From sequence record ON470617.2: a DNA stretch of 64,000 nt. One strand, given 5' to 3'. The position numbers and the translations under genes are program-made. The stretch is from Escherichia phage vB_EcoM-813R1. The notes under the pieces are model-generated. The model worked only from the letters and a program-made list of their open reading frames with translations. It was not told the DNA's origin and did not search any database. Below, one piece after another: positions 2,584-53,842 of the stretch; the first letter of the stretch is position 1, and each line of letters opens with the position of its first letter.

Positions 2584-2599
2584 GGAGTAAGAAACCCCC

Positions 2600-3601
2600 A
2601 TGTCAAAGAAAAACAGACCAACAATTGGGCGAACCCTTAATCCTTCAATATTAAGCGGATTTGATAGTTCTTCAGCCTCTGGCGATCGAGTCGAGCAGGT
2701 ATTCAAGTTATCAACTGGTCGCCAGGCCACATTTATTGAAGAGGTAATACCTCCGAACCAGGTAGAAAGCGATACCTTTGTTGATCAGCATAACAACGGG
2801 CGTGACCAGGCATCTCTTACGCCAAAATCATTAAAAAGTATCCGAAGCACTATTAAGCATCAGCAATTTTACCCTGCAATAGGTGTTAGACGGGCTACAG
2901 GGAAAATTGAAATTTTGGATGGTTCCCGGCGTCGAGCTTCTGCCATCTTAGAGAACGTAGGGTTGCGGGTTTTAGTCACGGACCAGGAGATCAGCGTTCA
3001 GGAAGCGCAAAATTTAGCGAAAGACGTTCAGACAGCATTGCAGCACAGCATTCGAGAAATAGGTCTGCGTTTGATGCGAATGAAAAATGATGGGATGAGT
3101 CAGAAGGATATTGCAGCCAAGGAAGGGCTGTCTCAGGCGAAAGTCACGCGTGCTCTCCAGGCAGCGAGTGCTCCGGAAGAATTAGTCGCCCTTTTCCCTG
3201 TGCAGTCGGAATTAACCTTTTCGGACTACAAAACGCTTTGTGCTGTTGGCGACGAAATGGGGAACAAGAATTTAGAGTTTGATCAGCTTATTCAAAACAT
3301 ATCCCCGGAAATAAACGACATCTTATCCATTGAAGAAATGGCCGAAGATGAAGTTAAAAATAAAATCCTGCGCTTGATAACAAAGGAAGCCTCACTACTC
3401 ACGGATAAAGGTTCTAAAGATAAGTCCGTAGTTACTGAATTATGGAAATTTGAGGACAAGGATCGCTTTGCAAGGAAGCGCGTGAAAGGCCGTGCATTTT
3501 CTTATGAGTTTAATCGACTTTCAAAAGAGCTACAGGAAGAACTCGACAGGATGATTGGGCATATCCTTAGAAAGAGCCTCGATAAAAAGCCGAATCCTTA
3601 A
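2600..3601 (+). CDS. parB: Partition centromere-binding protein ParB
   Basis: 333-aa ORF overlapping-adjacent to parA with an RBS (ggagtaag); followed by a parS-like site. Confidence 0.9.
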   Translation: MSKKNRPTIGRTLNPSILSGFDSSSASGDRVEQVFKLSTGRQATFIEEVIPPNQVESDTFVDQHNNGRDQASLTPKSLKSIRSTIKHQQFYPAIGVRRATGKIEILDGSRRRASAILENVGLRVLVTDQEISVQEAQNLAKDVQTALQHSIREIGLRLMRMKNDGMSQKDIAAKEGLSQAKVTRALQAASAPEELVALFPVQSELTFSDYKTLCAVGDEMGNKNLEFDQLIQNISPEINDILSIEEMAEDEVKNKILRLITKEASLLTDKGSKDKSVVTELWKFEDKDRFARKRVKGRAFSYEFNRLSKELQEELDRMIGHILRKSLDKKPNP

Positions 3602-3605
3602 ACTT

Positions 3606-3692
3606 TCGCCATTCAAATTTCACTATTAACCTACTGTTTTTAAAGTAAATCACTCTAAAATTTCAAGGTGAAATCGCCACGATTTCACCTTG
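3606..3692. promoter_or_regulatory. parS: parS centromere: ParB heptamer boxes (ATTTCAC) and hexamer boxes (TCGCCA) flanking an AT-rich IHF-type core
   Basis: tcgccATTCAAATTTCACtattaac...ttttaaagtaaatcactctaaaatttcaaggtgaaaTCGCCAcgATTTCACcttgg immediately after the parB stop. Confidence 0.75.
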
Positions 3693-3826
3693 GATTTTAC
3701 CTTCCTCCCCTACTCCCGAAAAAAATAAAAAAATTGCTTGTCACGAGAAAGTCAACAAGTGACTTTCAATAAAATCTCTTCCGAAAAGGGATTCACACAA
3801 GTGCCTTGTGTTTAAGGAAGAGTAAA

Positions 3827-5532
3827 TTGAGTAACTTACGCGAATACCAGAATCGTATTGCAGATATCGCAAAACGCTCTAAAGCTGTGCTTGGCTGGGC
3901 AAGCACTGCGCAGTTCGGTACTGATAACCAATTCATTAAAGATGATGCCGCGCGTGCCGCATCTATCCTTGAAGCTGCACGTAAAGACCCAATTTTTGCG
4001 GGTATCTCTGATAATGCCACCGCTCAAATCGCTACAGCGTGGGCAAGTGCACTGGCTGACTACGCCGCAACACATAAATCTATGCCACGTCCGGAAATTC
4101 TGGCCTCCTGCCATCAGACGCTGGAAAACTGCCTGATTGAGTCCACCCGCAATAACATGGACGCCACCAATAAAGCGATGCTGGAATCAGTCGCGGCAGA
4201 GATGATGAGTGTTTCTGACGGGGTTATGCGTCTGCCTTTATTCTTGGCGATGATCCTGCCTGTTCAGTTGGGGGCAGCTACCGCTGATGCGTGTACATTC
4301 ATTCCGGTTACGCGTGACAAGTCCGAAATCTATGAAATCTTTAACGTAGCGGGTTCTTCTTTTGGCTCCTATGCTATTGGTGATGTTCTGGACATGCAAT
4401 CCGTTGGCGTGTACAGTCAGTTGCGCCGCCGCTATGTGCTGGTTGCAAGCTCCGACGGCACCAGCAAAACTGCAACCTTCAAGATGGAAGATGTCGAAGG
4501 TCAGAATGTCCCGATTCGCAAAGGTCGCACAAACATCTACGTTAACCGTATTAAGTCTGTTGTTGATAACGGCTCCGGTACTCTGCTTCACACATTCAAT
4601 AACAAAGCAGGCGAACAAATCACTGTTACTTGCTCTTTGAATTACAACGTTGGTCAGATTGCCCTGTCGTTCTCCAAAGCGCCGGATAAAGGCACTGAGA
4701 TCGCCATTGAGGCGGAGATCAATATAGAAGCAGCTCCTGAGCTGATCCCACTTATCAACCACGAAATGAAGAGTTACACCCTGTTCCCAAACCAGTTCGT
4801 CATCGCGGCTGAGCACACGGTACAGGCGGCGTATGAAGCACAGCGTGAATTTGGTCTGGATCTAACTCCCTACAGTTCCGCACCCTGAAGGAATACCTAT
4901 CCCATGAGCAAGATATGCTTCGTCTTCGTATCATGATTTGGCGAACTCTTGCGACCGACTCCTTTGATATTGCACTACCAGCTAACCAGACCTTTGATGT
5001 GTGGGCAACCATCATTCGAGGCAAATTCCAGACGGTATATCGCGGTATTATTGAGCGTGTTAAATCTTCTGGTGCGATGGGGATGTATGCCGGTGCTGAT
5101 GCGGCATCTTTCTTCAAACAATTGCCGAAGGATTTCTTCCAGCCAGCAGAAGATTACATCCAGACCCCATACGTCCACTACATTGGCACTCTGTTCGGCA
5201 ACGTCAAAGTGTTCGAAGTACCAGAAGGTATTTGTACGAACCTGACCGCCGACGGTATCCAGTTCAGCCCAATGGATGTGCTGTGCTACGTCCGTGATGA
5301 AAATCCGGGCAAAGCGGGCTTCGTAACTGGTGATGCAGTCCCGGCTGTCCCATTCCAGCATCCGACCACCCCGGCACTAGTCAACCGAACCACTCTGTGG
5401 GGTTCGGCTATCAACGATATGCATCCACGCAACGGTGCTGACTACTTCACCCGTGTAACTCTGACTATGGCAAAAAATGGCGGAATTAACTTCCTGACCG
5501 GTAACACGATTGATGCTGGTGACTCTGAGTAA
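3827..5532 (+). CDS. Large virion structural protein, probably major head protein precursor (P1 gene 23 position); split by an apparent frameshift near 4870-4890
   Basis: Two ORFs (3806-4888 in frame 2 and 4915-5532 in frame 1) with frame 1 open upstream to at least 4861, so a single-base change fuses them into about 565 aa. Probable TTG start at 3827 after RBS aaggaag. Assigned by synteny (first gene after parS). Confidence 0.45.
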
Positions 5533-8007: not shown

Positions 8008-8157
8008 GGAGGAGGCCGGAGAACTCCGGCCTTTAACTTGAATGGCACCTATACCTTATGGGGTTTACAGCCAGGCTGACGGTGTATCGCCATTTCTGAA
8101 AGTTACTTTAACGAACTCTCAGTACCAGGTTACCGGATATATCAGCCAGGGGCAGCA

Positions 8158-8632: not shown

Positions 8633-9141
8633 ATGGGGCACAATAACACTAAGGGAAACCGTAAATTTATTAAGGGCCGCTATACTGCCAACGCGGCCAA
8701 AGGCGAACGACTGGTATCTTCTGAATTCCAGCTCACTTTTGCAGGCCATGAAGATATCAGCGTACTGGTTCGCACGTCGCAAATTCCTGAAATGACCCGC
8801 GAGGATGTGGAGGACTATGGTCCGAATGGTGTGAAGTTCAACCAGCACGGTCCAATCCGTAACTCCGGGGAAATCAGGTCCAGTGCGTGGAGACTATCGA
8901 AGGCGATATTCTTCAGTTCATTAAAGATCGCATTGCGGCGAAGGACTATGTTGATATCACGATGGCTGCGACCCCTGAATCCAAATCTTCCGGGGTTAAC
9001 GCTGTGACAAAAGCTGCTACAACAATTGAAATGTTGGACTGCAAAATCTACAGTGATGCAATCGACTTTAGTACCGAAGATGTGACTGCCGCTGTGCGTC
9101 CGTCACTTCGTATCGTTTACAACTGGATTGAGTGGGATTAA
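8633..9141 (+). CDS. Small tail/baseplate morphogenesis protein, frameshifted near 8870
   Basis: ORFs 8633-9007 and 8887-9141 join through ccgggg at about 8873, giving one roughly 169-aa product; rho-independent terminator follows. Confidence 0.35.
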
Positions 9142-18175: not shown

Positions 18176-21100
18176 ATGGAAAGAAAAAACGCCAACATTG
18201 ACGATGTTATAAGGACAGTTGAAACCGCCAGCGCGAAAGAGCTGGAAGAGCTTGCAGGTATTCGGGAAGCTGTTGAAGATTTGAAAGGGGAACGAGTTGC
18301 AACTGTTGATCCTGTCTCTCGCAGTGTGTCGGCATTAAATCGCACAATCGAAAATTCACGTCCTGACTTTGTGACCAATGTGCCATCAGTGGACTCTATT
18401 GTTGACGCAATGAAACGGCTTAATTTAGGGGACGTTTCTCGTATACGGAGGACAAAGTCACTAACCGTGAACAGCAGGCTGCACCAACAGCGCACAATCC
18501 CCCAAATAGACGAAGAGAGGCAATAACAGAGGATGTTAAAGCACAGCGGTTAGAAACGGTCAAACTCGCTCGTGATTTGAAAGGGGAACGCGTTGCAACG
18601 GTTGACCCAGTATCTCGCAGTGTGTCGGCATTAAATCGAACAATCGAAAATTCCCGGCCAGACTTTGTGGCCAATGCGCCATCAGTGGACTCTATTGTTG
18701 ACGCAATGAAACGGCTTAATTTAGGGGGCGTTTCTCGTATACGGGAGGACAAAGTCACTAACCGTGAACAGCAGGCTGCACCAACAGCGCACAATCCCCC
18801 AAATAGACGAAGAGAGGCAATAACAGAGGATGTTAAAGCACAGCGGTTAGAAACGGTCAAACTCGCTCGTGATTTGAAAGGGGAACGCGTTGCAACGGTT
18901 GACCCAGTATCTCGCAGTGTGTCGGCATTAAATCGAACAATCGAAAATTCCCGGCCAGACTTTGTGGCCAATGCGCCATCAGTAGACCCTATTGTTGACG
19001 CAATGAAACGGCTTAATTTAGGGGACGTTTCTCGTGTAGTTCAGGAGGGCATTGCTCAACAGGAACAGCAGGCCAAATCAACTACACCAAAGGGTAAAAA
19101 AAGACGCAGGAAGGCTATAACAGAAGATGTAAAGGCGCAACGGACCGAAGCAGCCGAACACGCTCGCGAAATGTTCGGTCAAAAAGGCGGTGCGCAAAAA
19201 GCCAAAACCAACGCGATGCGCGTGGTCGTTTTATTGGAAAGTCAGGGAGTAAGGCCGCAGCGGAAGATGCCCGTGCTGAACGTGCTGAAAAGGCCAGGCG
19301 CAAAGAGGATGATGAGCGTCTAAATGCTGAATCAGGTTTATTAAAAAAACTGTCAAAAGTAGCTGAAGGCATAGGTAACCCTTCAGAGACTCGTGCCGTC
19401 GATGCGTTAGGTTATGCCGTTGCTGGTCCATTGTGGGCAGCAGGGAAGGAGCTTGGCGGGATATCAAAAGAAGTTGGTGGATCGCTTAATGGCGCCAGAA
19501 AGTCTATTGCCGATGTGATTCGTGGCAATGACGATAACAGCCGTAGAAAAGGTTTTTTAGGCGTAAATCGCAAAATAGTGCCGATGTCGTTCAGGTTAAC
19601 ACCCAAAAACGGACGGTTCAGGAACTTCAGGAGCAGACCAGCGAAATTAAAGAGGGCAATGACAAGATTCTCAGCGCCCTTGATCAGATAGCCAAAAACA
19701 CCGGGAAAAAGAAGGGCGGCTTGCTGTCCAAACTATTTAGCCTGTTAGGGAAGGGGGCCGGTGGCGTCGCGTCGTTGTTAATGGGGCGTGGCATGCTGAA
19801 AAAGCTGGAGCACTCGCTTTTGGCGCTCTGGGGGTAAAGAAACTTGTAGGAATGCTACGCGGTGGTGGTAAGAAGACTCTCGCCCATGAAGGCGGAGATT
19901 TGGCTGCCCGGGCAGCAGGTAAACTTGGATTAAAGGCAGTTGGTAAAGGGGCGTTACGCGCAATTCCCCTAGTCGGCACAGTGGCTGGAGGTATTTATGA
20001 TGCGGTAACCGGTTGGAATGATACAGAAGCGCAACGTCGAGCGTTTGGGCTTAAATCAGGACAAGATCCATCATTCCAGCAAAAAGCCGCTTATACGTTA
20101 GCTAATATTCTTGATATGGGGGGACTGGTATCTGGTATTAGCAGCGCCATTGGTGAGGTTCTCAAATCACTTGGATTTGAGGATATCGGCAATATGTTGC
20201 AATCATTTTCGACGGAAAGTATTGCACAGGCCATTGATAGTGGGGTTACCAACTTAGAAACATATATTTCTAATCTTGGCGACACCATTTCTACCAAGTT
20301 CGATGATTACACAGCAAAGATTGGTGATGCTGTTTCAGCATGGTTTAGCGATACATCTAATAAGTTGCTTGAAAAGCTGGATGCCATAAAAGACTTCTTT
20401 ACTGTCGATAACCTGAAACAGGTTTTCAGTGATGCAATTGATAGTGCAATTGATTTCATTAAGAACCCGGGGAAACACATTAAAGAGGCGGCTGGTAATA
20501 TTTGGGATGGGGTTAAAAATTTACCCGGTAAAGCAATAGATGCAGCGTTTGATGCCGTTAAAAATACCCCTGCGGCAATAATTGTATCAAAAATACCCAA
20601 TCCGATCGGCGAGGCTAATGCGAAAGAAATCACTCCAGAGTTAAAAGCTCCGGTTAATAGCCACCAGGAGACGTCTGATTCTAAAACTGAATCCGATGCC
20701 AAACAGAGTAATATTGCTACCCGCGTGATAAATGCGGCACTGGACACGGCGAAAGATAGCAATAAAACAGTTAAACAAACTGCCAATCAGATTATCAATG
20801 CAAATGCCGTAGAAACGGGCAATAGCGCGTTGCAGAAAATTGATAAAGCTATTGGTCAAAATAGCTCGTCATCATCCTCGCTTAATACCACTGGCACCAG
20901 GAATGACATTCAGAAAGCTGCGGATACCTACAATAATGGCAACTTGGATGTAAAAGTCGGAAGTCTTGGAGCTGAAGGTAAGGCAAATCTCGATAAGTTG
21001 GCTCCGTATTTTGCTGAACTAGAGAATAAATATAGCCTTCCTGAAGGTACTCTTTACGCGATCGCTGCAACTGAATCTGGTGGTGATCCTAACGCAAAAT

Positions 21101-22188
21101 CTACGCTTACAAGATCACCAAATGGAAAGCTAAGTGGTGGCGCTCTCGGAATGTTCCAGTTTACGAGCGTTGCTCGTGAGGAAACTGGATTATCCCGGGA
21201 AGATTCTTTTAATCCGGAAAAATCGGCAGAAGCTGCGGCTCTTCTCATGAGCAAGTATCTGAAGCAAGCCAATGGAGACTTAAACGAGGCCATCACTGCA
21301 TATAACGCTGGGTTTGGCACTATTAATAAGTGGAAAAAAGGCACAGGTGACTTATCGAAAGAAAACCGTGAGTACGCGATCAAGGTCAATACTCATCGTG
21401 CTCGCTATTTAGGTGGTGAAATCTATACACCTGGGGCAGGAGCACAGGGTGGGGCGCAATATGGAGTGAGGGGACCACTGCCTGATAACGCCGTTATCGA
21501 TCAGTCTACTGGTCTGGCGTTTACCCTGGTGATAGCCCGTTTGAGAAAGGCGGTCTGGTAGACAAAATCGGCAATGCTGTTGGCGTTAACGATCTGGTCA
21601 ACAAATTCATGAATGGCCGGGGGATGCGTCGGGAAGTCGTCCAGGGGAACCCTCGAAGAACGTGCACGAGGAAGGGGAACCGCAACGGCAGCTGGCAATG
21701 TGTATGTTGATACACCTATGCCAGTTGAAGAGGCACGTCCGGTGGCCAACAACTCAAGTTACTTTGACCAGCTCGGCGCACAAATGGGGATTGATGGACT
21801 GTATGACAAACTCATTAATGCCCGGGGAATGCGCTCAAATAATTCTCCTCAACCAGCCTCCACGTCCCAGGTGACGACTGCCGCCAACGATTTGCAGCAA
21901 CCAACCGGTCGTATGCAGATAGACGGACAGGTTATTAGTGACCTTGGTGGCTCCGGTGCCAAGCCGACAATGCAGTTGGCTGATAATACCGTTTCACTTG
22001 ATGGTGAAACGAAGCGGCTGTTTGCGCAGATGACCTCATTGCTTGCCAGGATTGAAGAGCACACCAAAGACTCAGCGAAAGGCCAGGGAACTGTCGTAAA
22101 GGTCAGCACGCCTCAGCCGGGCGTTATGCGCACGGTACCACTGTCAATTGATGATCCGTTGATGAATGACTACGCGAGAGTTGATTGA
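18176..22188 (+). CDS. sit: Sit-like tape-measure / injection transglycosylase (soluble lytic transglycosylase domain about 21000-21400); multiply frameshifted
   Basis: Consecutive protein-like ORFs (18176-18526, 18577-19323, 19431-19691, 19852-21561, 21613-22188) in shifting frames; SLT-type motif GALGMFQFTSVAREETGLS...AEAAALLMSKYL; three 300-bp tandem repeats at the N-terminal end. Confidence 0.55.
18283..19180 (+). repeat. Three tandem copies of a roughly 300-bp coding repeat inside sit
   Basis: Motif LKGERVATVDPVSRSVSALNRTIENSRPDFV(A/T)N(A/V)PSVD(S/P)IVDAMKRLNLG repeated starting near 18283, 18580 and 18880; copy 1 differs from copy 2 by one G in a G-run (tacggagg versus tacgggagg). Confidence 0.8.
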
Positions 22189-24888: not shown

Positions 24889-25323
24889 ATGTCTGACGTC
24901 TCAACAAACCTCTATAAGAGTCAGTTGTTGGACTATTACTATCAGCGGCGCGCTGAATCGTCCATTAACAAAGGCTCTCGATTTTTAATCAGCAAGGCCG
25001 TTTTCGGTACCAGTTCACTGGTTACTAAGAAAGGAGATGGCACTTATGAGATTGGAGAACTGCCAAAGGCTTTCGATCTGGCAGAACTGACCAGTCAATT
25101 TTGCACCATCAACCTCGTCCCAACCTACTCAGGAGGGATAATTACTGTCCGAATGGACCTTGATCAAAGTCAGTTGCAGGAAGGGAAAAACTACCCATTC
25201 AACACTCTGGTTGTTCTGGATAACGAGAATAAGCCAATCGCCATTATTTGTGTCCAAGAAGACTCGCTGTATGTGGGCAAAACATATACCGCAGTTATGG
25301 CCATAAACACGACTACAGCATAA
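24889..25323 (+). CDS. Tail-fibre-associated structural protein (P1 R position)
   Basis: 144-aa ORF immediately upstream of the tail-fibre gene. Confidence 0.4.
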   Translation: MSDVSTNLYKSQLLDYYYQRRAESSINKGSRFLISKAVFGTSSLVTKKGDGTYEIGELPKAFDLAELTSQFCTINLVPTYSGGIITVRMDLDQSQLQEGKNYPFNTLVVLDNENKPIAIICVQEDSLYVGKTYTAVMAINTTTA

Positions 25324-25334
25324 GGATATGCTTG

Positions 25335-28300
25335 ATGAATGACGTTACAGTTGTTACATCGGTTACTTACCCATCACCCGAGTCGTTGGCTCTGGTGGCT
25401 GATGTGCAATACCACGAACCATATCTGTCAGCCGCTCTAAACCGAAAATTCAGGGGAATTGTTGACCCGGGATTTTATGCTGGTTTCTTGCCTAAGCCTG
25501 GCGGTGGGATGAAACTGTTAATCACCTCAGTGGATGGTGATAAAACCGCTGGCGCGGCGTCAGTGAATATTGGTGAATTCTACCAGGTAACTATTCAGCA
25601 GCGTAAGGATATTTCTCTTGCACTTAGCGCAGGTAAGAAATATGCAATTGTGCTGAAGGGAAGATACCTCCTTGGAGAAGATTCTTATCAGGTTAATACC
25701 GCGTCACATATTCATGCGGCTGAATTTGTTGCCAGAACCTATACCGATTCATATCAGTTAGGAGATGGGGAACTGCTTGTTTGTACGGTGAATATCCCTG
25801 CTGGCGTATCTGCTATTACTCAGGAAATGATAGATGTATCCGACCGCATCGATCTCACGATAGGCATTGAAATTTCCGACTCTGTAACCAGTACCAGAAG
25901 TGATGTCGCTGCAAGTTCGCTGGCAGTTAAAAAAGCCTACGATCTGGCGAAAAGCAAGTATACGGCGCAGGATGCAAGCACAACGCAAAAGGGATTAGTT
26001 CAGCTCAGTAGTGCTACTAACAGCACGTCTGAAGTGCTGGCCGCCACACCGAAAGCTGTCAAGGCTGCATATGACCTGGCTAACGGGAAGTATACGGCCC
26101 AGGATGCAACCACGACACAAAAAGGGATAGTTCAGCTCAGTAGCGACACCAACAGCACTTCTGAAACATTAGCTGCAACGCCAAAAGCGGTTAAAGCTGC
26201 ATACGATCTAGCAGCCGGAAAGGCACCATCCAGTCATACACATCCCTGGAATCAGATCACTGGTGTGCCAACAGCTTCATTGACAGCGAAAGGCATCACT
26301 CAGCTCAGTAGCGACACCAACAGCACTTCTGAAACATTAGCTGCAACTCCAAAAGCGGTTAAAGCTGCATACGATCTAGCAGCCGGAAAGGCACCATCCA
26401 GTCATACACATCCCTGGAATCAGATTACTGGTGTGCCAACAGCTTCATTGACAGCGAAAGGCATCACTCAGCTCAGTAGTGCCACTAACAGCACGTCCGA
26501 AGTGCTGGCCGCCACACCGAAAGCAGTCAAGGCAGCATATGACCTGGCTAACGGGAAGTATACGGCCCAGGATGCAACCACGACACAAAAAGGGATAGTT
26601 CAGCTCAGTAGCGACACCAACAGCACTTCTGAAACATTAGCTGCAACTCCAAAAGCGGTTAAAGCTGCATACGATCTAGCAGCCGGAAAGGCACCATCTA
26701 GTCATACACATCCCGGAATCAGATTACTGGTGTGCCAACAGCTTCATTGACAGCGAAAGGCATCACTCAGCTCAGTAGTGCCACTAACAGCACGTCCGAA
26801 GTGCTGGCCGCCACACCGAAAGCAGTCAAGGCAGCATATGACCTGGCTAACGGGAAGTATACGGCCCAGGATGCAACCACGACACAAAAAGGGATAGTTC
26901 AGCTCAGTAGCGACACCAACAGCACTTCTGAAACATTAGCTGCAACTCCAAAAGCGGTTAAAGCTGCATACGATCTAGCAGCCGGAAAGGCACCATCTAG
27001 TCATACACATCCCTGGAATCAGATTACTGGTGTGCCAACAGCTTCATTGACAGCGAAAGGCATCACTCAGCTCAGTAGCGACACCAACAGCACTTCTGAA
27101 ACATTAGCTGCAACTCCAAAAGCGGTTAAAGCTGCATACGATCTAGCAGCCGGAAAGGCACCATCCAGTCATACACATCCTGGAATCAGATTACTGGTGT
27201 GCCAACAGCTTCATTGACAGCGAAAGGCATCACTCAGCTCAGTAGTGCCACTAACAGCACGTCCGAAGTGCTGGCCGCCACACCGAAAGCAGTCAAGGCA
27301 GCATATGACCTGGCTAACGGGAAGTATACGGCCCAGGATGCAACCACGACACAAAAAGGGATAGTTCAGCTCAGTAGCGACACCAACAGCACTTCTGAAA
27401 CATTAGCTGCAACGCCAAAAGCGGTTAAAGCTGCATACGATCTAGCAGCCGGAAAGGCACCATCCAGTCATACACATCCCCGAATCAGATCACTGGTGTG
27501 CCAACAGCTTCATTGACAGCGAAAGGCATCACTCAGCTCAGTAGTGCCACTAACAGTACGTCTGAAGTGCTGGCCGCCACACCGAAAGCTGTCAAGGCTG
27601 CATATGACCTGGCTAACGGGAAGTATACAGCCCAGGATGCAACCACGACACAAAAAGGGATAGTTCAGCTCAGTAGCGACACCAACAGCACTTCTGAAAC
27701 ATTAGCTGCAACGCCAAAAGCGGTTAAAGCTGCATACGATCTAGCAGCCGGAAAGGCACCATCCAGTCATACACATCCCTCGAATCAGATCACTGGTGTG
27801 CCAACAGCTTCATTGACAGCGAAAGGCATCACTCAGCTCAGTAGTGCCACTAACAGCACGTCCGAAGTGCTGGCCGCCACACCGAAAGCAGTCAAGGCAG
27901 CATATGACCTGGCTAACGGGAAGTATACGGCCCAGGATGCAACCACGACACAAAAAGGGATAGTTCAGCTCAGTAGCGACACCAACAGCACTTCTGAAAC
28001 ATTAGCTGCAACTCCAAAAGCGGTTAAAGCTGCATACGATCTAGCAGCCGGAAAGGCACCATCCAGTCATACACATCCCTGGAATCAGATCACTGGTGTG
28101 CCAACAGCTTCATTGACAGCGAAAGGCATCACTCAGCTCAGTAGTGCCACTAACAGCACGTCTGAAGTGCTGGCCGCTACACCGAAAGCTGTCAAGGCTG
28201 CATATGATTTGGCTAATGGAAAGCAAGCGGCAGACGCTACGCTCACTGCTCTAGCGGCACTAGCTACCGCAGCAGATAAACTCCCTTATTTCACAGGGGT

Positions 28301-28853
28301 TGATCGTGCCGCGTTAACTGCACTGACAAGTGTTGGACGTGCAATTCTTAGTAAGCCCAGTATTCAGAGCGTTCTTAATTACCTTGGTTTGGGAGAAACG
28401 ATAGATAAAGCCTCCGGAGCTATGCAGAAATCGGCTAATGGATATGATATTTCTGATGTATCAGCCTTCCGAAATGCGCTCCAGTTAGGGACCGCTGCAA
28501 CACGAGATGTTGGAGCAGATAATGCCTCGAAGTTACTGGATTTAGACAGCTTCAGGTCAATGATGTCAGGTAATGGCTACATCTACATTCCATGCATTGC
28601 GACGACAGGAAACCCGGTGAAACTTATGTTGCAGTGGGGAATGGTGGCAACACAAAAGGGAGTTGATGCTGGATATGCCTTACCATTTGCTTTTCCCTAT
28701 GCAGGTTTGTTTGCGACCGGAAACCGTGGAACATCTGGCTACAATGCCGCGATGAATGTGCGTATTGCCAGCAGAACGCATATCAGTATTCAGAACTGGT
28801 CGCCATCCGGAGAGGGCACCGAAGATTGTTGTTTTATCGCGTTGGGGTATTAA
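25335..28853 (+). CDS. S: Tail fibre protein S (constant part Sc plus currently fused variable part Sv), with a greatly expanded phage tail-fibre repeat array; three apparent frameshifts
   Basis: Start MNDVTVVTSV at 25335; repeats of the tail-fibre motif TTQKGIVQLSS(A/D)TNSTSE(V/T)LAATPKAVKAAYDLA; four ORFs (25248-26750, 26732-27217, 27199-27516, 27498-28853) each break at the same HTHPWNQITG position; C-terminal Sv domain lies inside the invertible segment. Confidence 0.7.
25960..28200 (+). repeat. In-frame tandem repeat array in S: alternating 300-bp and 168-bp units
   Basis: The string ggcatcactcagctcagtag recurs at 26292, 26460, 26759, 27059, 27225, 27525, 27825 and 28125 (spacings 168, 299, 300, 166, 300, 300, 300). 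Confidence 0.85.
28373..28398. other. Candidate cixL recombination site (Cin crossover site at the Sc/Sv junction)
   Basis: ttcttaattaccTTggtttgggagaa; core TTGGTTT(G/A)GG(A/G)A is shared with the inverted copy at 30282-30307. Confidence 0.5.
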
Positions 28854-40032: not shown

Positions 40033-41103
40033 TCAGCCAACAGTGCTCGTGCAAATCTCTTGGTGGTTTTTCGACAAATGCCTCTTCAGCCACATCCTGC
40101 CAGGGATTTGTTTAGCCCATTCAGCTATAGCGTTATGGTTTGCCGAGAATAACGGTATTGTATAGGCCTTCAGCCAGTCTAATGTGCTGGAGTTGTGTTT
40201 TTGAGCGTGATGTTTCGCATGGTGTTTGGCGATCACGATCGTAGGCACTACCCATTTACTACCGTCAGTCATTGTGAAGTGCATATTACGGGGAACAGAT
40301 GACTTTTCCATCAACTCCCGAATCCCGGGAAATTTCCCCAAGATCAATCGGCGATATTCATCGCTATTGCGCCCACCAAACTCTTTGGCTTTGAATTCAA
40401 GATATGCTTCAGAAACGAGAGGTGAATCCTCTGTGTTTAGAGTTATCGCCGTGAAAAAACCAGCAGGATTGTTTTTACTATGGGCCAACCGGTGATGCGA
40501 ATCATAAAAGTACCCTTTCTCGCGTTCCGATGGTTTCGACAGCAACAGCAGGCGCGAGTCATAATTGGTTAAATTGCCAGTTATCACTGCATGAGCGCGA
40601 TCGCTGATTTCCGCCGAGTTAATAACGATGAAAAGATCGTGCGGTCCAGTAAAACCAGCCAGAGACTCTTCGTTATTCAGACAATAGGTTATATAGACGC
40701 ATCCCCATGTTTCACTGATATGCACCAACCCTTTGTCAGGGTGTATTCTGAAATAATTGCCAAGAAAAGGGTGTTTTTGGGTAACTCGCTCCCAATAACG
40801 GAACATATAGTCAATTATTGTTTTTCGACTATCGTTAATCGCAGGAGAAACAACCACTGTACGGGAACACGAATACAGTATTGTTTGCAGGATGCTAATC
40901 ACTGCCACAATAGAGGTTTCCCCAATACCATGTGGTGTGGTGGCAGTGACTTTGGCTCCGGTGTTCTTTATCGCGTTAATAATTTTTGCTTGATGAGGTG
41001 TTAACTCAATATCAAGCAACTCTTTTGCTGCCAGTTCCCAATTGTCTTTATACCGTTCTATCAGTGCTAACCAGGCAGATTCATTCTGTATACGATTAAT
41101 CAC
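40033..41103 (-). CDS. Hypothetical protein with degenerate P-loop, terminase-large-subunit-like N-terminal region
   Basis: 356-aa ORF; N-terminal TPHQAKIINAI...TATTPHGIGETSIVAV resembles a Walker-A region with Thr in place of Lys; the last about 70 aa are His/Lys-rich and low-complexity (possible frame error). Confidence 0.3.
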   Translation of the reverse strand: MINRIQNESAWLALIERYKDNWELAAKELLDIELTPHQAKIINAIKNTGAKVTATTPHGIGETSIVAVISILQTILYSCSRTVVVSPAINDSRKTIIDYMFRYWERVTQKHPFLGNYFRIHPDKGLVHISETWGCVYITYCLNNEESLAGFTGPHDLFIVINSAEISDRAHAVITGNLTNYDSRLLLLSKPSEREKGYFYDSHHRLAHSKNNPAGFFTAITLNTEDSPLVSEAYLEFKAKEFGGRNSDEYRRLILGKFPGIRELMEKSSVPRNMHFTMTDGSKWVVPTIVIAKHHAKHHAQKHNSSTLDWLKAYTIPLFSANHNAIAEWAKQIPGRMWLKRHLSKNHQEICTSTVG

Positions 41104-46390: not shown

Positions 46391-49300
46391 ATGAACAAGC
46401 TATCTATGGGGGTGTTTCGCTGTTCAAGTGTCAGCGAAATATTGAAATACATTAGGGCAATAACATCTCACCGAGCGCCGATTAGATACGGCGTGGAAAA
46501 GGTGGAAGGCAAAAGCTATGACCGACTACGCCGGGAGGCGAATCAGAAGGCGATTGATTTGCTTAATTCGCTGGTGGACGGCGCGACACTGACAGATGAA
46601 CAGCGCCAGATCCTGGCTGGGTACACCGGTGAAGGCGGCATTGGCGGGTCCGTCTCCGAATATTACACACCAAAGCCGATCGCTGAAGGTGTCTGGGAGA
46701 TCATGAAGCTCTACGGCGCGGACGTAGGTAACACTCTGGAACCATCGGCGGGAACCGGCGTTTTTAATGAGACAAAACCGGTTGGTACGGTGATGACCGC
46801 GACTGAGATCAGCAGTGTTTCCGGTCGTATAAACCAGCTGTTACATCCGGAAGACAGCGTACAGATTTCCCCGTTCGAACAACTGGCTGTAAGCACGCCT
46901 AACGATTCATTCGACCATGTGGTGGGTAACGTTCCGTTCGGTGGTCGTGATAACACACGCAACATCGATAAACCTTACGCAGAAGAAACGGACATGGGGT
47001 CTTACTTCATGCTCCGCATGTTGGACAAGATAAAGCCTGGCGGATTCATGTGCGTGATTGTGCCGCCGTCCATTGTTTCAGGTTCAAACATGAAGCGGTT
47101 ACGCCTGCGTCTATCCCGTAAAGCTAAATTTCTTGGCGCTCACCGCTTGCCTACCGGTACTTTTGACGCAAACGGGACCAGTACGGTCGTTGATGTGGTG
47201 CTGATGCGTAAACATCCGGCAGAGATGGCTGAGAAAATCCCCTGGTGGATGAAGGCACTCTTGAATCGGCAAATGTGCTTTGGCCAACGTTTATTTCTGG
47301 CAAGTGGTTTGAAAAGGACGGCCGCCGGTTTGTTCATGGTACTCAGGAGAAGGGATTCCAGGGCGTATTGAGGTTCGTGCCGACGGGCAGATTGATAACC
47401 TGGCTCTTAAAGCGAAGCTGATTCATCGTTTCGAAAGTCGTATCGACTGGTCTTTGCTCGATATGGCTGAACCGTCACCGACCGCAGATGTTGTTGATGA
47501 AGGGGAAATGCGCCTGATTAATGGCGTATGGCAAAAATATGCTGGTGGTCGCTGGATTGAAGCTGATGCCGGGAAGGAGCTGAAGATTGATGTTGCCAGT
47601 TATGGCGCGGATAGCTGGGAGGCTCTTCAGCGTAACCTGACTACCACAGAAGGTCGTCTCGGCATGACATTTACCCAGATGGCAAATGTCCGCGATAAGT
47701 ACACCACATCAATCAGCGACGATATGGTGCAACTGGTGGACTGGATTAACAGCCAGCCTGAAAAATACCGTGAACGCTTGTATCGCGGGGCGATGATTGG
47801 CCGGATGTTAATTGAATATCAGGATATGAAGGCCGCCGGGCATAGTGCTGAACAAATCGAACAGCAGCGCCTTTCTCTGGTATCCCGTTTGCAGGCAGAG
47901 ATTGACCGCTTTGGTAATCCTGGTCGCGGTCCTATAGCGAAATTGTCGGGGAGCGGTGCGCGCGCCTGGTTTGCTTTCCGTGGTGCGATTAAGCTGGATG
48001 GCACTATTTCAGACGAGCTGACAGGAAAGCTGGTTACGCATGACTCCAGCGCCAGTTATGACTCCACCAGCTATCAGGACACCCTGCGTTATCTCTATAG
48101 CGATCTTACCCGCGATCCAATCCAGCTCGATGATTTCCGCCTTGCGTTTACCGGCGAACTGCCAGCCAGTGATGACGAGTTGCTTAATTTATTGGCCAGC
48201 ACCCTGGTATTGCGGTTTCACCGTATGGCGGGATTGTTCCGTTTGCCCGCGCCACCAGCGGCGACATTAACGAGATAGTGGCTCCAAAACAGGAATTCCT
48301 CGCCACGCTCCCCGACGGTCCAGTAAAGAACAACGTCCTTAATCAGCTGGCAGCGATCGAAGAGAAGCGCATCAAGACGCCAGCAGAGAATATCCGGTTT
48401 AAGCTCAATAGCCGTTGGTTCGACCGTTCCGTCATTCTGGAATTTTTGCAGGAAAACGGCTATCCGGATCTGCGCTATGTGCAGTCAGTGCAGCTGGAAG
48501 GCGACGAAATGGTTTCTGACACCTATCACGGTGGTGATGGCCTGTTCGTAGGACACCGATACGGTGTCGTCCAGCGCAAGGATAAAGAAACAGGCGAGAT
48601 CCGCTACGAGTGGGACCGTAAATCAGGTGAAAACGCGACCGGGTTCCCGGCACAGCTGGAAAAGTATCTCAATGGTGCGCGTATCGGTGGCAAAGATAGC
48701 GCGACGGCGAACGGCTACCGCGAGCAGATGGCACTGCTTGAGGACCAGTTCAATAAGTGGATCAAGACGCACGATCGCTACGATGAGTTGGTTGCCAAAT
48801 ACAACGATGTGTTCAATAGCAATATCCCGTATGAACACTCTGGCGATCCGCTTGGGTTGAAGGGATTAAGCGGTAAGCGCCAGCCATTTGATTACCAGAA
48901 TAGCGAGGTGCGCCGACTGTCCGAAGATGGGCGCGGCATCCTGGGCTTCGGCACCGGGCTGGGTAAAACGACGACCGCGCTGGCGCTTGAGGCGTTCAAC
49001 TATGAGAACGGTCGCTCCACCCGTACTGCTTATGTAGTGCCTAAAGCAGTGCTGGAAAACTGGTATTACGAAGCAAAAGAGTTCCTGAGTGAAGAGGCAT
49101 TCAGTAACTACCTGTTCGTCGGTCTTGATGTGCTGATGGATGGCGATCAGATTCGCCAGGTGCCGGTGCTCGATGAGAACGGTAAACCTGTTCTTGGTAC
49201 TGATGGCACTCCAGTTATGCGCGATGCTCTTAAGCTGGCAGATGAAGCCACTATCACGGCGCGGATGAACGCGATCCCGCACTCAAATTACCGTGCAGTC

Positions 49301-52300
49301 GTGTTTACCAAAGAACAATACGCCCGCATTCCGCTACGTGATGACACCGTAGATGAGCATGCACAGGATATGCTTTATGACTTCGTTGCCGCTGGGCGCG
49401 TAGCCAGCGCAATGGATTCCGATTCCCATCGCAAAGAGGCGGCGCGTCGCCGGGTATTGTCGGAGTATTCAGATACCGGCACCGAAAAAGCAGAGAAGTA
49501 TCCGTACTTTGAGGATATGGGCTTCGATAGTGTGATCGCTGACGAAGGTCACAACTACCGCAATAGCTATAAAAATGGTCGCGAAGCGTCACAACTGGCC
49601 TATCTGCCCACCAGCGCGGTGGCGCAATCGGCGCGGGATATGGCAATTAAAAACGCGTACCTGATGAAAAAGAATGGTGGGCGCGGACCGGTTCTCCTGA
49701 CTGCAACGCCAGTCGTTAACACCCCGATCGATGCATACAACATGCTTTCTCATGTTCTGCCGAAGGAATACTGGCAGAAGATGGGGATCTACGGTCCTGA
49801 TGACTTCGTTAAATTCTTCGGCAAGACCAGGCTGGAAACGGTACAGAAAATCAGCGGTGAAGTTGAAGAAAAATGGCACTGGTGGGCTTTGAAAACCTTG
49901 ATGCGCTGCGCGGTATATTCCATCGCTGGGTAACGCTTAAAACGGCGGAAGACGTTAAGGATACCGTGGAGATCCCGGAACTGGACGAACACCAGCAGGA
50001 TGCACCACTTACTGAAGAACAACTGGCGGCGTATGAAGAATTGCGTCAGCAGGCGGAAGCGGCGGCCAAAGCCAACAATGGCGTAACGACCTCGGTCAAT
50101 GAAGACGGCGTGATTGAGCACGAGAAGGCCCGTCCGATCTTCTCAATAATCAGGGATATGGACCGCGTATGTACTGACATGGACCTGTACTATCGCCGGA
50201 TCACCTATCGTTTCCTGCCGGAGTACGCCGATGCGGTGCAGCAGCTGGCGGACAGTTTGCCTAAACAAGCCACCAGCGAAGACGACGACAGTGATGATTC
50301 AATCACGCAGCAATCGCAATACTCCCTGATAGATAAGGGCGAGTTTATTCAGTTACAGGTTCCGGAAGCGTTCGAGCAGGAAGTGAATAAGCGCCTGGCC
50401 AGGTTTGGCATTGACGAACAGACCGTAACTCACCCCGTTACGCCCAAATACGCGAAGCTGATTGCCACGCTGAAGGAGTTTTTCCCGGAAGGTAAGCAAA
50501 TCATCTTCACCGATGAAAAAACGCAGCACCAGAAGCTCAAGCGCATTATCTGCAATGCTCTTAACCTTGAACCTTCAAAGGTGGGGATACTGAATGCTCA
50601 GACGGTTGCCGAGGCAGGTAAAACCGGTAAGAAACTGAAAGCGGTTAAACCGCCGAAAGAGTTACCGGATGAACCAACAGATGCACAGATAGCGAAATAC
50701 AACGAGCAAATGGCTCTGTATGACGCCTATATCGCGCAGCAAAATGAAATGTCGTTGGGCGGTCTGGAAAAGATTGCAGCCGACTTCCAGGAGGGCCGGA
50801 CTCCGATCATCATCTGCAACAAAAAGGCAGAGGTGGGTATCAACCTGCATCGAGGAACGACTGACATCCATCATCTGACGTTGCCATGGACTCCAGCCAG
50901 TATTGCGCAACGAAACGGTCGCGGTGCCCGAGTTGGCTCCAACCGTGCAAGCGTTCGCGTTCACTACTACTGCGGCAAGGGTTCTTTCGATGAATACCGA
51001 CTGAAGACGCTGAAGCGTAAAGCAGGCTGGATCTCCGATATCCTCCGTTCAGATAAGTCAGAAATGGAGAACGCCGACGCCAACGATATGATCGAAATGC
51101 AGATGTATACCGCTAAGGATGATGGCGAACGTCTGGCAATGATGCAGGTTCAAATGGATAAGGCGAAAGCTGCGAAACGCGCTCGCCAGAAAGAACAGGC
51201 TACTATCGACCTTCAGAACTACATCAAGGTGCAGCACGCAGCTGGTGAGGATGTGGAGGTACTTACCGCTGAATTGGAGCGAAGCAAAGCGGAACTTGAA
51301 AAGACCACCGCCGACGTCGCCAAATTCAAACAGGCGGTAATGGCCAAAGCAGCTGATAACGCAGACTGGAAAGCCCGCTGGGGTAGCGTCCATCACACAG
51401 ACCGTATGTTGTTAGCACAGTATCGCGCGTCGTTGAAAAGCGCCATTCAGCGCAAGGCTAATATCTCTCAGGCCATCTCCCGCTATGAGAAATTATTGAA
51501 CCGTACTCAGAAGGCCGCGACGGATATCAAACGCCTGCGCCCGCAGGTGGAGGATGCAATAAATAAAGGCATTCTGGATGTTGATCCTGATCTGGTTAAC
51601 CATGCGAATGAGTTCCTTGTTATCGGCGATCGCTCATGGCGTGTAGGCCAATACTACGATTGTGCCGGTGATATCGTTCGCATTAAGTCGCTGGACTTCG
51701 ACAGCCAGCGCGCAGACGTGGAGATCATCTTTACCTTCAAAGGCACCAAATCGGGTAACTGGGATGTGAAGACGCTGGATAAACAGGTTGATGTAACTCC
51801 CGATGAAGATGCTGTTATGCAGAAAATCAGTGGTGGCGTCTCCATCGCCGGGATTAACGACATCATTTCCTGTGACGATTTCTACCGTTTCCAGCAGCGC
51901 GGCATGATCAAAATAACTGACTCGTACGGCGTTCAGACTACAGAGTCAGGCTATAGCATTGATTTTGTTGGTACCTATACGGACCCACTGAAGCATGCGG
52001 TTTACCCGGATCGCCGTGACGGCGCGCTGAAGTCGTCAATTGCAAAATGGGTGCTTGGTATGATGTCGGAAGGGAATAACCGCCAGGTCCGTTTGGCAGA
52101 AGTATTCCTGACTGAACTGTTTGGCTCCAATTATGGCGAGGTAATCGCGTCATACGGAGATACTCTATCCCCTGAAGCACTTCAGGAGAAAATAGCGGAT
52201 TCGATCGCCAAAATGCCGGAGAAAACAAGCCAGGGGCTACTCGTAACGGGGATTCTGAACTTGAGGTCACCAATGCTATTTTCGGTACCCATGAGTTCCG

Positions 52301-53627: not shown

Positions 53628-53842
53628 AAAAGCGATACTACACAGTAAAGCATGGGACGCTACGAGCATTACAAGAGTTTGCTGACAAGCATAACGTTGA
53701 GGTGCGCAGGGAAGGGGGAAGTAAAGCTCTGCGCATGTACCGTCCGGACGGGAAATGGCGTACGGTCGTCGATTTCAAAACTAACAGCGTTCCCAGGGCG
53801 TCCGTGACCGGGCATTCGAAGAATGGGAGCAGATCATCATAG
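53624..53842 (+). CDS. Small basic protein, possibly Lxc-like modulator of C1
   Basis: 72-aa ORF between ulx-position gene and mod; assignment by position only. Confidence 0.3.
   Translation: MKKRYYTVKHGTLRALQEFADKHNVEVRREGGSKALRMYRPDGKWRTVVDFKTNSVPRASVTGHSKNGSRSS

What the first reader, a model, noticed from the sequence alone, without database searches (positions are those of the whole stretch)
26241..27790. Four different lesions at the same CCTGG pentamer in four repeat copies
The repeat unit contains catcCCTGGaatcag (encoding HPWNQ). Four copies are intact (about 26241, 26410, 27010, 28078), but four others each carry a different change at that exact spot: cccgg (26713), cctgg with a shortened C-run (27179), ccccg (27479) and ccctcg (27781). 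Three cause the frame breaks in S. Further breaks lie in or beside CC(A/T)GG: ref has a missing C immediately 5' of CCTGG, and cre has TGG to TGA inside CCTGG. CCWGG is the Dcm methylation motif in E. coli; the pattern looks like methylation-dependent basecalling error rather than mutation, since true 5-methylcytosine deamination would give CTWGG, which is not what is seen.
Basis: partly seen in the sequence, partly recalled or inferred. Interest (0 to 1): 0.6.

Follow-up and report, generated by a model that had tools for sequence, protein, structure and literature searches.

The report
Nanopore methylation errors break tail-fiber gene
The four different "mutations" at one CCTGG site in the repeated tail-fibre gene of this P1-like E. 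coli plasmid are almost certainly errors of an unpolished long-read (nanopore-type) assembly at Dcm-methylated sites, a well-known artefact and not biology.

Summary
Eight copies of AGTCATACACAT-CCCTGG-AATCAG lie in the tail-fibre gene S (window 25335-28853). Four are intact and four carry four different changes: T deletion, C deletion, T>C plus G deletion, and G>C. Three of these shift the reading frame.

The window is the first 64 kb of a P1-like IncY phage-plasmid. It was compared with a 99.87%-identical plasmid, pEC-16-35-3, and it differs from that plasmid by 67 events:
- 20 events hit 20 of the 158 CCWGG sites. CCWGG makes up 1.2% of the bases (P about 2e-17).
- 34 events are one-base (in one case two-base) contractions of homopolymer runs, mostly 5 or more bases long.
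- Indel columns are 51 deletions to 1 insertion.
- Only about 12 events look like ordinary SNPs.

Run length alone predicts 0.6 contractions of runs that touch CCWGG; 14 are seen. None of the 20 events has the 5-methylcytosine deamination signature.

26 of 56 genes are broken, including the C1 repressor, cre, ref, cin and darB. No other plasmid examined shares any of these alleles.

The profile matches published consensus errors of Oxford Nanopore assemblies of dcm+ Enterobacteriaceae. This is a data-quality artefact of low biological interest.

The parts
25335..28853 (+). Tail-fibre gene S of a P1-like phage-plasmid. In the window it is broken into four ORF fragments. The intact homologue is 1173 aa with 16 Pfam Phage_fiber_2 repeats.
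   Evidence: intact 3522-nt CDS in three plasmids; Pfam PF03406, E = 2e-298; ORF fragments and frame analysis.
25956..28223 (+). Tandem repeat array inside S, built from 132-, 168- and 300-nt modules. It contains the eight catCCCTGGaat sites.
   Evidence: Tandem Repeats Finder.
26712..26716 (+). Lesion 1: CCCTGG read as CCCGG (T deleted, -1 frameshift).
   Evidence: All three same-size references have CCCTGG. The allele is absent from 731 copies of the unit in 182 E. coli genomes.
27178..27183 (+). Lesion 2: CCCTGG read as CCTGG (one C of the run deleted, -1 frameshift).
27478..27482 (+). Lesion 3: CCCTGG read as CCCCG (T>C plus loss of one G, -1 frameshift; it restores the original frame after lesions 1 and 2).
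27777..27782 (+). Lesion 4: CCCTGG read as CCCTCG (G>C, Trp>Ser, no frameshift).
26244..26249 (+). Intact CCCTGG copy. The other intact copies are at 26412-26417, 27011-27016 and 28077-28082.
8146..8152 (+). CCAGGGGG read as CCAGGGG: contraction of a G run that abuts CCWGG.
8875..8878 (+). CCAGG read as CAGG (C deleted). Frameshift in a hypothetical gene.
21523..21529 (+). CCCCTGG read as CCCTGG, in the transglycosylase gene. Nearby, at 21641-21647, CCAGGG is read as CCAGGGG; this is the only insertion in the window.
30008..30012 (+). CCAGG read as CCGGG (central A>G).
   Evidence: This substitution type is described in bioRxiv 10.1101/570192.
36894..36898 (+). CCAGG read as CCGGG (central A>G, Gln>Arg).
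38885..38890 (+). CCCTGG read as CCTGG (C deleted, frameshift in a 995-aa hypothetical gene).
40100..40105 (+). CCAGGGG read as CCAGGG (G deleted, frameshift).
47239..52236 (+). Four contractions of runs adjacent to CCWGG inside the darB-like methylase gene, at 47239, 47361, 48202 and 52233.
53792..53797 (+). CCCCAGG read as CCCAGG (C deleted, frameshift).
58771..58775 (+). CCCAGG read as CCAGG (C deleted), in the type III restriction endonuclease gene.
59895..59900 (-). ref gene: CCCCTGG read as CCCTGG on the coding (minus) strand (frameshift).
61851..61855 (-). cre-like integrase gene: CCTGG read as CCTGA on the coding (minus) strand; TGG (Trp) becomes a TGA stop.
63195..63865 (+). Example of the second error class: two A7>A6 contractions (63195, 63860) that frameshift the C1 repressor gene. 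There are 34 such run contractions across the window.

Best explanation
The lesions are consensus errors of a long-read-only assembly that was never corrected with accurate reads. The most likely source is Oxford Nanopore R9-era data called with a model not trained on Dcm methylation.

In a dcm+ E. coli host the inner cytosine of every CCWGG is 5-methylated on both strands. That shifts the pore current for the k-mers spanning the site. The basecaller then miscalls the central base, drops a base, or miscounts the C/G run that contains the site. At a site where many reads are wrong in several different ways, the majority consensus can come out differently in each copy. This would explain why eight identical contexts give four correct and four differently wrong calls.

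The true sequence is almost certainly CCCTGG in all eight copies, and gene S is intact.

Shown here: motif specificity, deletion bias, co-occurrence with homopolymer errors, uniqueness of the alleles, and implausible gene damage.

Inferred, not shown: the sequencing platform, the methylation state of the DNA, and the read-level ambiguity.
For: 1. Near-identical references. pEC-16-35-3 matches the whole window at 99.87%. It, pEC2_5 and pRIVM_C029554_1 have the same-size array, CCCTGG in 24/24 copies, and an intact 1173-aa S gene.

2. The 67 difference events are 20 at CCWGG, 34 run contractions, 1 complex change and 12 substitutions. Indel columns are 51 deletions to 1 insertion.

3. Enrichment. 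20 of 158 CCWGG sites are hit, and CCWGG is 1.24% of bases (P about 2e-17). Against pEC2_5, indels hit 14/146 CCWGG sites. They hit 0 or 1 sites in every control set except the overlapping pattern CWGGW (8/341), for example CCSGG 1/101 and CCWGC/GCWGG 0/350. After homopolymers of 5 or more are removed, CCWGG is the top pentamer (P = 5.5e-21).

4. Run-length control. Contractions of C/G runs touching CCWGG versus not: length 3, 3/46 vs 2/669; length 4, 6/16 vs 1/154; length 5, 3/3 vs 4/38. Expected 0.62, observed 14 (Poisson P = 7e-15).

5. None of the 51 indel events or the 4 substitution-only CCWGG events is present in pEC2_5 or pIso00270_01. Ten of the 12 other substitutions are present there. 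The T-deleted allele is absent from 731 copies in 182 complete E. coli genomes.

6. 26 of 56 CDSs would be inactivated, including C1 (two frameshifts), cre, cin, ref, darA, darB (five frameshifts) and type III mod/res. All seven non-CCWGG substitutions in S are synonymous, whereas four of the five CCWGG substitutions are W>R, W>S, Q>R or W>stop (the fifth is synonymous).

7. Literature. With default ONT models about 70% of consensus errors lie in CCAGG/CCTGG, and homopolymer-length errors come next (PMC6591954). In E. coli, 93-98% of ONT-versus-Illumina discrepancies are A>G or T>C at the centre of CC(A/T)GG (10.1101/570192). That is the change seen at 30010 and 36896, and partly at 27481.
Against: - No reads, raw signal or assembly metadata are available, so the platform and the methylation state are inferred.
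- Only 13% of CCWGG sites are affected. Two other CCWGG contexts in the same array (tgaCCTGGcta and ggcCCAGGatg) are hit 0/6 each. The wider context therefore matters, and the assembly must have been partly polished or called with a partly trained model.
- Identical local contexts give different outcomes. That needs a stochastic consensus step which cannot be shown here.
- Two changes (G>C at 27781, outer C>T at 61851) are not the most commonly described A>G or T>C type.
Confidence: 0.94

Rival explanations
1. The lesions are real. The plasmid would be a decaying, defective P1-like prophage in which S and many other genes are pseudogenes.
For: Frameshifted tail-fibre genes do occur in deposited P1-like plasmids; for example NZ_CP029117.1 is annotated 'frameshifted; internal stop'. 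Phage-plasmids can lose virion functions.
Against: - Random decay would not put 20 of 67 events into 1.2% of the sequence, nor give 51 deletions to 1 insertion, nearly all of them in runs.
- It would have to break 26 of 56 genes while nucleotide identity to an intact relative stays at 99.87%, with only about 12 ordinary SNPs.
- C1 repressor loss is not compatible with stable P1-type lysogeny (established P1 biology).
- None of the alleles is seen in any relative.
Confidence: 0.02
2. The four lesions are an artefact of assembling or polishing a tandem repeat. Reads would be mis-placed between near-identical units, and methylation would play no part.
For: The sites lie in a 96-98% identical tandem array, where polishing is hardest. 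Identical contexts give different results.
Against: - Sixteen further lesions of the same kinds sit at single-copy CCWGG sites all over the window.
- Within the array, every unique change is at the CCCTGG site. The other differences are synonymous variants shared with other plasmids or other units.
- Mis-placement between units would copy existing variants. It would not create new indels at one pentamer.
- Repeat context may still contribute to the high 4/8 rate.
Confidence: 0.03
3. These are generic homopolymer-length errors of any flow- or pore-based platform, and they only happen to fall next to CCWGG because CCWGG contains CC and GG runs.
For: 13 of the 20 CCWGG events are contractions of a C or G run, and a 14th is a G-run expansion. 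Homopolymer contractions are abundant elsewhere in the window.
Against: - At equal run length, runs touching CCWGG are contracted about 20-90 times more often. Expected 0.62, observed 14.
- Six events are not run-length changes: one T deletion, two A>G, one T>C plus G deletion, one G>C, and one C>T.
- CCSGG, which has the same CC and GG runs, is hit by an indel at 1/101 sites, against 14/146 for CCWGG.
Confidence: 0.01
4. The changes are real mutations driven by Dcm biology, either deamination of 5-methylcytosine or faulty very-short-patch (Vsr) repair at CCWGG.
For: CCWGG inner cytosines are known mutation hot spots in E. coli (established knowledge).
Against: That process gives C>T at the second C (CTWGG, or CCWAG on the other strand). 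None of the 20 events is of this type. 15 of them involve an indel, which deamination cannot produce.
Confidence: 0.003

Closest known systems
Dcm-motif (CCAGG/CCTGG) consensus errors of Oxford Nanopore assemblies of Enterobacteriaceae (Wick, Judd & Holt 2019, Genome Biol 20:129, PMC6591954; Greig et al. 2019, bioRxiv 10.1101/570192)
   Same: Errors are concentrated in CCWGG. The central base is read A>G or T>C. They are accompanied by homopolymer-length errors as the second class. The host family methylates CCWGG. Genes appear frameshifted.
   Different: Here only 30% of the events and 13% of the sites are affected, against about 70% of errors with default models in the paper. Overall apparent accuracy is about Q31, so the assembly was probably partly polished or called with a later model. 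Most CCWGG events here are run contractions and not substitutions.
Homopolymer under-calling in nanopore consensus sequences
   Same: 34 contractions of runs, rising steeply with run length (A/T runs: 2/182 at length 5, 9/65 at 6, 8/15 at 7, 4/6 at 8). Almost all are deletions.
   Different: It does not explain the excess at short C/G runs that touch CCWGG, or the substitutions.
Tail-fibre protein S of phage P1 and P1-like phage-plasmids (Pfam Phage_fiber_2 repeats, with the cin-invertible C segment downstream)
   Same: Same position, between gene R and U/cin. The 5' part is 95% identical to P1/P7 S. The intact homologue has 16 Phage_fiber_2 repeats.
   Different: The long 132/168/300-nt tandem array with the HTHPWNQ unit is not in P1 itself. 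It is shared with a subgroup of IncY plasmids, in variable copy number.
5-methylcytosine deamination hot spots at Dcm sites
   Same: Same pentamer.
   Different: The required C>T at the inner cytosine is absent from all 20 events.

Membership tests
ONT Dcm-motif consensus error | The error lies within, or changes the run that contains, a CCAGG/CCTGG motif of the true sequence | tested here: met
   20 events at 20 of 158 CCWGG sites. All four S lesions are at reference CCCTGG.
ONT Dcm-motif consensus error | Excess over other sequence contexts, not explained by run length | tested here: met
   Binomial P about 2e-17. Top pentamer after removing homopolymers. Run-length-matched Fisher tests P = 1.7e-6 (length 4), 2e-3 (length 3) and 3e-3 (length 5). 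Expected 0.62, observed 14.
ONT Dcm-motif consensus error | Typical substitution is the central W read as S (A>G / T>C) | tested here: met
   30010 and 36896 are CCAGG>CCGGG; 27481 is T>C. The type is described in 10.1101/570192. Two other substitutions (27781 G>C, 61851 C>T) are atypical.
ONT Dcm-motif consensus error | Co-occurs with homopolymer-length errors in the same assembly | tested here: met
   34 run contractions; 51 deletion columns to 1 insertion. PMC6591954.
ONT Dcm-motif consensus error | Variants absent from accurate reads of the same DNA, and raw signal shows 5mC at the sites | not testable with these tools
   No reads or signal data. As a proxy, the alleles are absent from all relatives examined.
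ONT Dcm-motif consensus error | The host carries an active CCWGG cytosine methyltransferase (dcm or M.EcoRII-like) | not testable with these tools
   The host chromosome is not in the window. The closest relatives are all E. coli plasmids, and E. coli is expected to carry Dcm methylation (PMC6591954).
5mC deamination / VSP hot spot | C>T at the inner cytosine, giving CTWGG (or CCWAG on the other strand) | tested here: not met
   0 of 20 events.
Genuine pseudogenisation of a defective prophage | Lesions unbiased with respect to motif and indel direction, accompanied by proportionate substitution divergence; maintenance genes stay intact | tested here: not met
   54 of 67 events are at CCWGG or in runs. 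Indels are 51:1 deletions. Only about 12 SNPs. C1, cre and cin are broken.
Phase-variable simple-sequence contingency locus | A long homopolymer or short-unit tract whose length varies by slippage | tested here: not met
   The tract is only CCC. Two of the four lesions (T deletion, G>C) are not slippage products.
P1-type tail fibre protein S (Phage_fiber_2 family) | Multiple PF03406 repeats; position between R and U upstream of the cin-invertible segment | tested here: met
   16 repeats, E = 2e-298, in the intact homologue. Gene order R-S-U-U'-Sv'-cin in the annotated relatives.

The most novel reading that the evidence does not exclude
The variants are real and record a CCWGG-targeted mutagenic process that produces indels and non-deamination substitutions. 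One example would be error-prone repair after EcoRII-like or Vsr nicking at hemimethylated sites. It would be acting on a P1-like plasmid that is being inactivated gene by gene.
Probability: 0.01. Interest if true: 0.7.

Novelty: not a real feature. Interest (0 to 1): 0.07.

Why it matters
Biologically it does not matter: the tail-fibre gene and the other 25 "broken" genes are very probably intact.

Practically it matters in four ways:
- It is a warning about this record. About 55 positions in 64 kb (about 0.09%, roughly Q31) are likely wrong.
- Nearly half of the genes would be annotated as pseudogenes or split ORFs.
- Any inference of a defective prophage, of loss of cre/c1/cin function, or of tail-fibre variation from this sequence would be spurious.
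- Other findings from the same window that rest on frameshifts, premature stops, or short ORFs next to CCWGG sites or homopolymers should be discounted.

Tried and rejected
1. P1, P7 and other phage records as references. They lack the long repeat array and align only to the 5' 2 kb of the region, so they cannot be used for the site comparison.

2. pEC2_5 as the whole-window reference. It is only 97-99% identical and mosaic. Its many true SNPs blur the substitution analysis: several apparent CCWGG substitutions in the cre region turned out to be shared divergence. It was replaced by pEC-16-35-3.

3. Looking for the same damage in another deposited plasmid with a split S gene (NZ_CP029117.1). 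All seven of its CCCTGG sites are intact, so its frameshifts have another cause.

4. A second methylation motif. Only 1 of 273 GATC sites lies next to a change. A weak GGGAG/CTCCC signal (6/65) was not pursued.

5. Considered and rejected on the mutation spectrum: 5mC deamination; diversity-generating retroelement mutagenesis (adenine-specific, never indels, from established knowledge); phase variation by slippage; and selection against EcoRII sites. On the last point, CCWGG is over-represented, 151 against 92.6 +/- 9.8 in shuffles.

6. PMC10039527 and PMC8495745 were read for error descriptions. They gave only general support.
Full report
**What is in the sequence**

Between 25956 and 28223 the window carries a tandem array of 132-, 168- and 300-nt modules. 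The array contains eight copies of AGTCATACACAT followed by a CCCTGG site.

Four copies read CCCTGGAATCAG (site at 26244, 26412, 27011, 28077). The other four read:
- CCCGGAATCAG at 26712 (T missing)
- CCTGGAATCAG at 27179 (one C missing)
- CCCCGAATCAG at 27478 (T>C and one G missing)
- CCCTCGAATCAG at 27777 (G>C)

The codons are His-Thr-His-Pro-Trp-Asn-Gln. The flanks are identical for at least 12 nt on each side, whether the copy is intact or altered.

**What the region is**

The window is the first 64 kb, starting at repA, of a P1-like IncY phage-plasmid of E. coli. The array lies in the tail-fibre gene S (window 25335-28853), between gene R and the U/cin invertible segment.

In three plasmids with an array of exactly the same size, S is an uninterrupted 3522-nt gene. 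These are pEC2_5 (NZ_CP041960.1), pRIVM_C029554_1 (NZ_CP068934.1) and pEC-16-35-3 (NZ_CP093228.1). The gene encodes 1173 aa with 16 Pfam Phage_fiber_2 repeats (E = 2e-298). All 24 copies of the site read CCCTGG.

In the window the three one-base deletions cut S into ORFs 25248-26750, 26732-27217, 27199-27516 and 27498-28853. Because the deletions sum to -3, the last piece is back in the original frame. Against pEC2_5, the only differences in the whole S gene are the four lesions and one G/T SNP at 27414.

**Whole-window test**

pEC-16-35-3 matches all 64 kb at 99.87%. The comparison gives 71 differing columns: 51 deletions in the window, 1 insertion and 19 substitutions. These group into 67 events:
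- 20 events hit 20 of the 158 CCWGG sites.
- 34 are contractions of runs elsewhere, 30 of them in runs of 5 or more.
- 1 is a complex change at 4864-4866.
- 12 are plain substitutions.

CCWGG occupies 1.24% of the bases, so 20 of 67 events there has a binomial P of about 2e-17.

In an unbiased ranking of all pentamers, only AAAAA and CCCCC rank above CCWGG. Once events in homopolymers of 5 or more are removed, CCWGG is first (17/158, P = 5.5e-21), followed by pentamers that overlap it.

Against pEC2_5, indels hit 14 of 146 CCWGG sites. They hit 1/101 CCSGG, 0/42 GGWCC, 0/158 GCWGC and 0/350 CCWGC/GCWGG sites.

**Not just homopolymers**

Thirteen of the 20 CCWGG events are contractions of the C or G run that includes the motif's CC or GG. 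I therefore compared runs of equal length:

| C/G run length | Contracted, touching CCWGG | Contracted, not touching |
|---|---|---|
| 2 | 2/251 | 1/4334 |
| 3 | 3/46 | 2/669 |
| 4 | 6/16 | 1/154 |
| 5 | 3/3 | 4/38 |

The Fisher P values are 0.009, 0.002, 1.7e-6 and 0.003. Run length alone predicts 0.62 contractions, and 14 are seen (Poisson P = 7e-15).

The other events at CCWGG are one G-run expansion (21644), one T deletion, two CCAGG>CCGGG, one T>C plus G deletion, one G>C, and one outer C>T.

**Real or artefact**

Five independent lines point to artefact.

1. Direction and context. The ratio of 51 deletions to 1 insertion, nearly all in runs or at one pentamer, is an error profile and not a mutation spectrum.

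2. Uniqueness. None of the 51 indel events or the 4 substitution-only CCWGG events occurs in pEC2_5 or pIso00270_01. Wherever the context is conserved, those plasmids carry the reference allele. Ten of the 12 other substitutions are found there. The T-deleted allele is absent from 731 copies of the unit in 182 complete E. coli genomes; the best identity is 98.9%, which is the single gap.

3. Coding consequences. 26 of the 56 genes annotated in the near-identical plasmid would be inactivated. They include C1 repressor (two frameshifts), cre (TGG>TGA), cin, ref, darA, the darB-like methylase (five frameshifts), type III mod and res, and S. By established P1 biology, a P1-type prophage cannot be stably maintained without C1.

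4. Selection signature. All seven non-CCWGG substitutions in S are synonymous. The clustered ones (27557-27629) match pEC2_5 and other units of the array, so they are real variation or gene conversion. Four of the five CCWGG substitutions are W>R, W>S, Q>R or W>stop, and the fifth is synonymous.

5. Deamination of 5-methylcytosine would give CTWGG or CCWAG. None of the 20 events is of that type.

**Comparison with what is known**

Wick, Judd and Holt (PMC6591954) classified ONT consensus errors in an enterobacterial genome into Dcm-motif, homopolymer and other. With default models about 70% of errors lay in CCAGG/CCTGG, and homopolymer-length errors made up most of the rest. Training on Dcm-methylated DNA removed the first class.

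Greig et al. (bioRxiv 10.1101/570192) found that 93-98% of ONT-versus-Illumina discrepancies in E. coli O157 were A>G or T>C between runs of C and G in CC(A/T)GG. All of these discrepancies were at positions called Dcm-methylated by Nanopolish. That is the change seen here at 30010 and 36896, and partly at 27481.

Later R10.4.1 models reach about 99% read accuracy inside CCWGG (PMC11610603). This suggests the window derives from older chemistry or an older model.

About 55 putative errors in 64,000 bases is 0.086%, or roughly Q31. That figure and the 13% site hit rate suggest partial polishing.

**Why four different lesions in identical contexts**

This step is inferred. At a methylated site individual reads err in several ways: they drop the T, drop a C, or miscall a base. 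If correct reads are not a clear majority, the consensus or polisher settles on different answers in different copies. The tandem array may add to this by making read placement less certain.

The wider context clearly matters. In the same array atcCCTGGaat is hit 4/8, while tgaCCTGGcta and ggcCCAGGatg are hit 0/6 each. Only read pile-ups or raw signal could show the mechanism directly.

**Verdict**

The feature is a known sequencing artefact and not a biological feature. Its value is as a quality flag for this record and for other findings from the same window that rest on frameshifts or stops.

The remaining uncertainty, a few per cent, concerns the platform, the methylation state, and a possible contribution of the repeat context. 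None of these can be tested from the sequence alone.

Noticed in passing
window 18278-19035: A 297-bp tandem repeat (2.6 copies) lies inside the large lytic-transglycosylase (P1 Sit-like) gene. The window has one more 297-bp unit than pEC-16-35-3, and the gene length differs among relatives (3021, 3726 and 4023 nt as annotated). This is either a copy-number polymorphism or an assembly difference.
   Followed up: partly
window 4864-4866: A unique complex change, CTTGGCTCC to CTAACTCC (two substitutions plus a 1-base deletion, frameshift), begins one base after a GATC. It is neither at CCWGG nor in a homopolymer. Only 1 of 273 GATC sites lies next to a change, so Dam methylation is not a general cause. 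Unexplained.
   Followed up: partly
window 8006, 11387, 17588, 18447, 29254: The few short-run deletions away from CCWGG share a purine context: a G (or A) run followed by AG/GAGG. GGGAG/CTCCC is hit 6/65 (P = 2e-5), falling to 3/65 after removal of homopolymers of 5 or more. This may be a second, weaker systematic error context.
   Followed up: partly
window 27557-27629: Five clustered synonymous substitutions relative to pEC-16-35-3 match pEC2_5 and other units of the same array. This looks like gene conversion between repeat units of the tail-fibre gene.
   Followed up: partly
whole window: CCWGG is over-represented: 151 sites against 92.6 +/- 9.8 in dinucleotide-preserving shuffles. 20 of the sites are in the S repeat array. 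There is no sign of avoidance of the EcoRII/Dcm site.
   Followed up: no
L010 (NZ_CP029117.1 103615-110427), tail fibre CDS at locus 2336-4746: Another public P1-like plasmid has its S gene annotated as frameshifted with an internal stop, yet all seven of its CCCTGG sites are intact. One unit spacing is 166 nt where 168 is expected, so the errors or mutations there are of another kind.
   Followed up: partly
window about 35390-36600 (minus strand) and about 54020-58890: Accessory cargo is shared with the closest relatives: an IS200/IS605-type TnpB (RNA-guided endonuclease) gene between the darA operon and a 995-aa hypothetical gene, and a type III restriction-modification system (mod, res). 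Both carry homopolymer or CCWGG frameshifts in the window.
   Followed up: no
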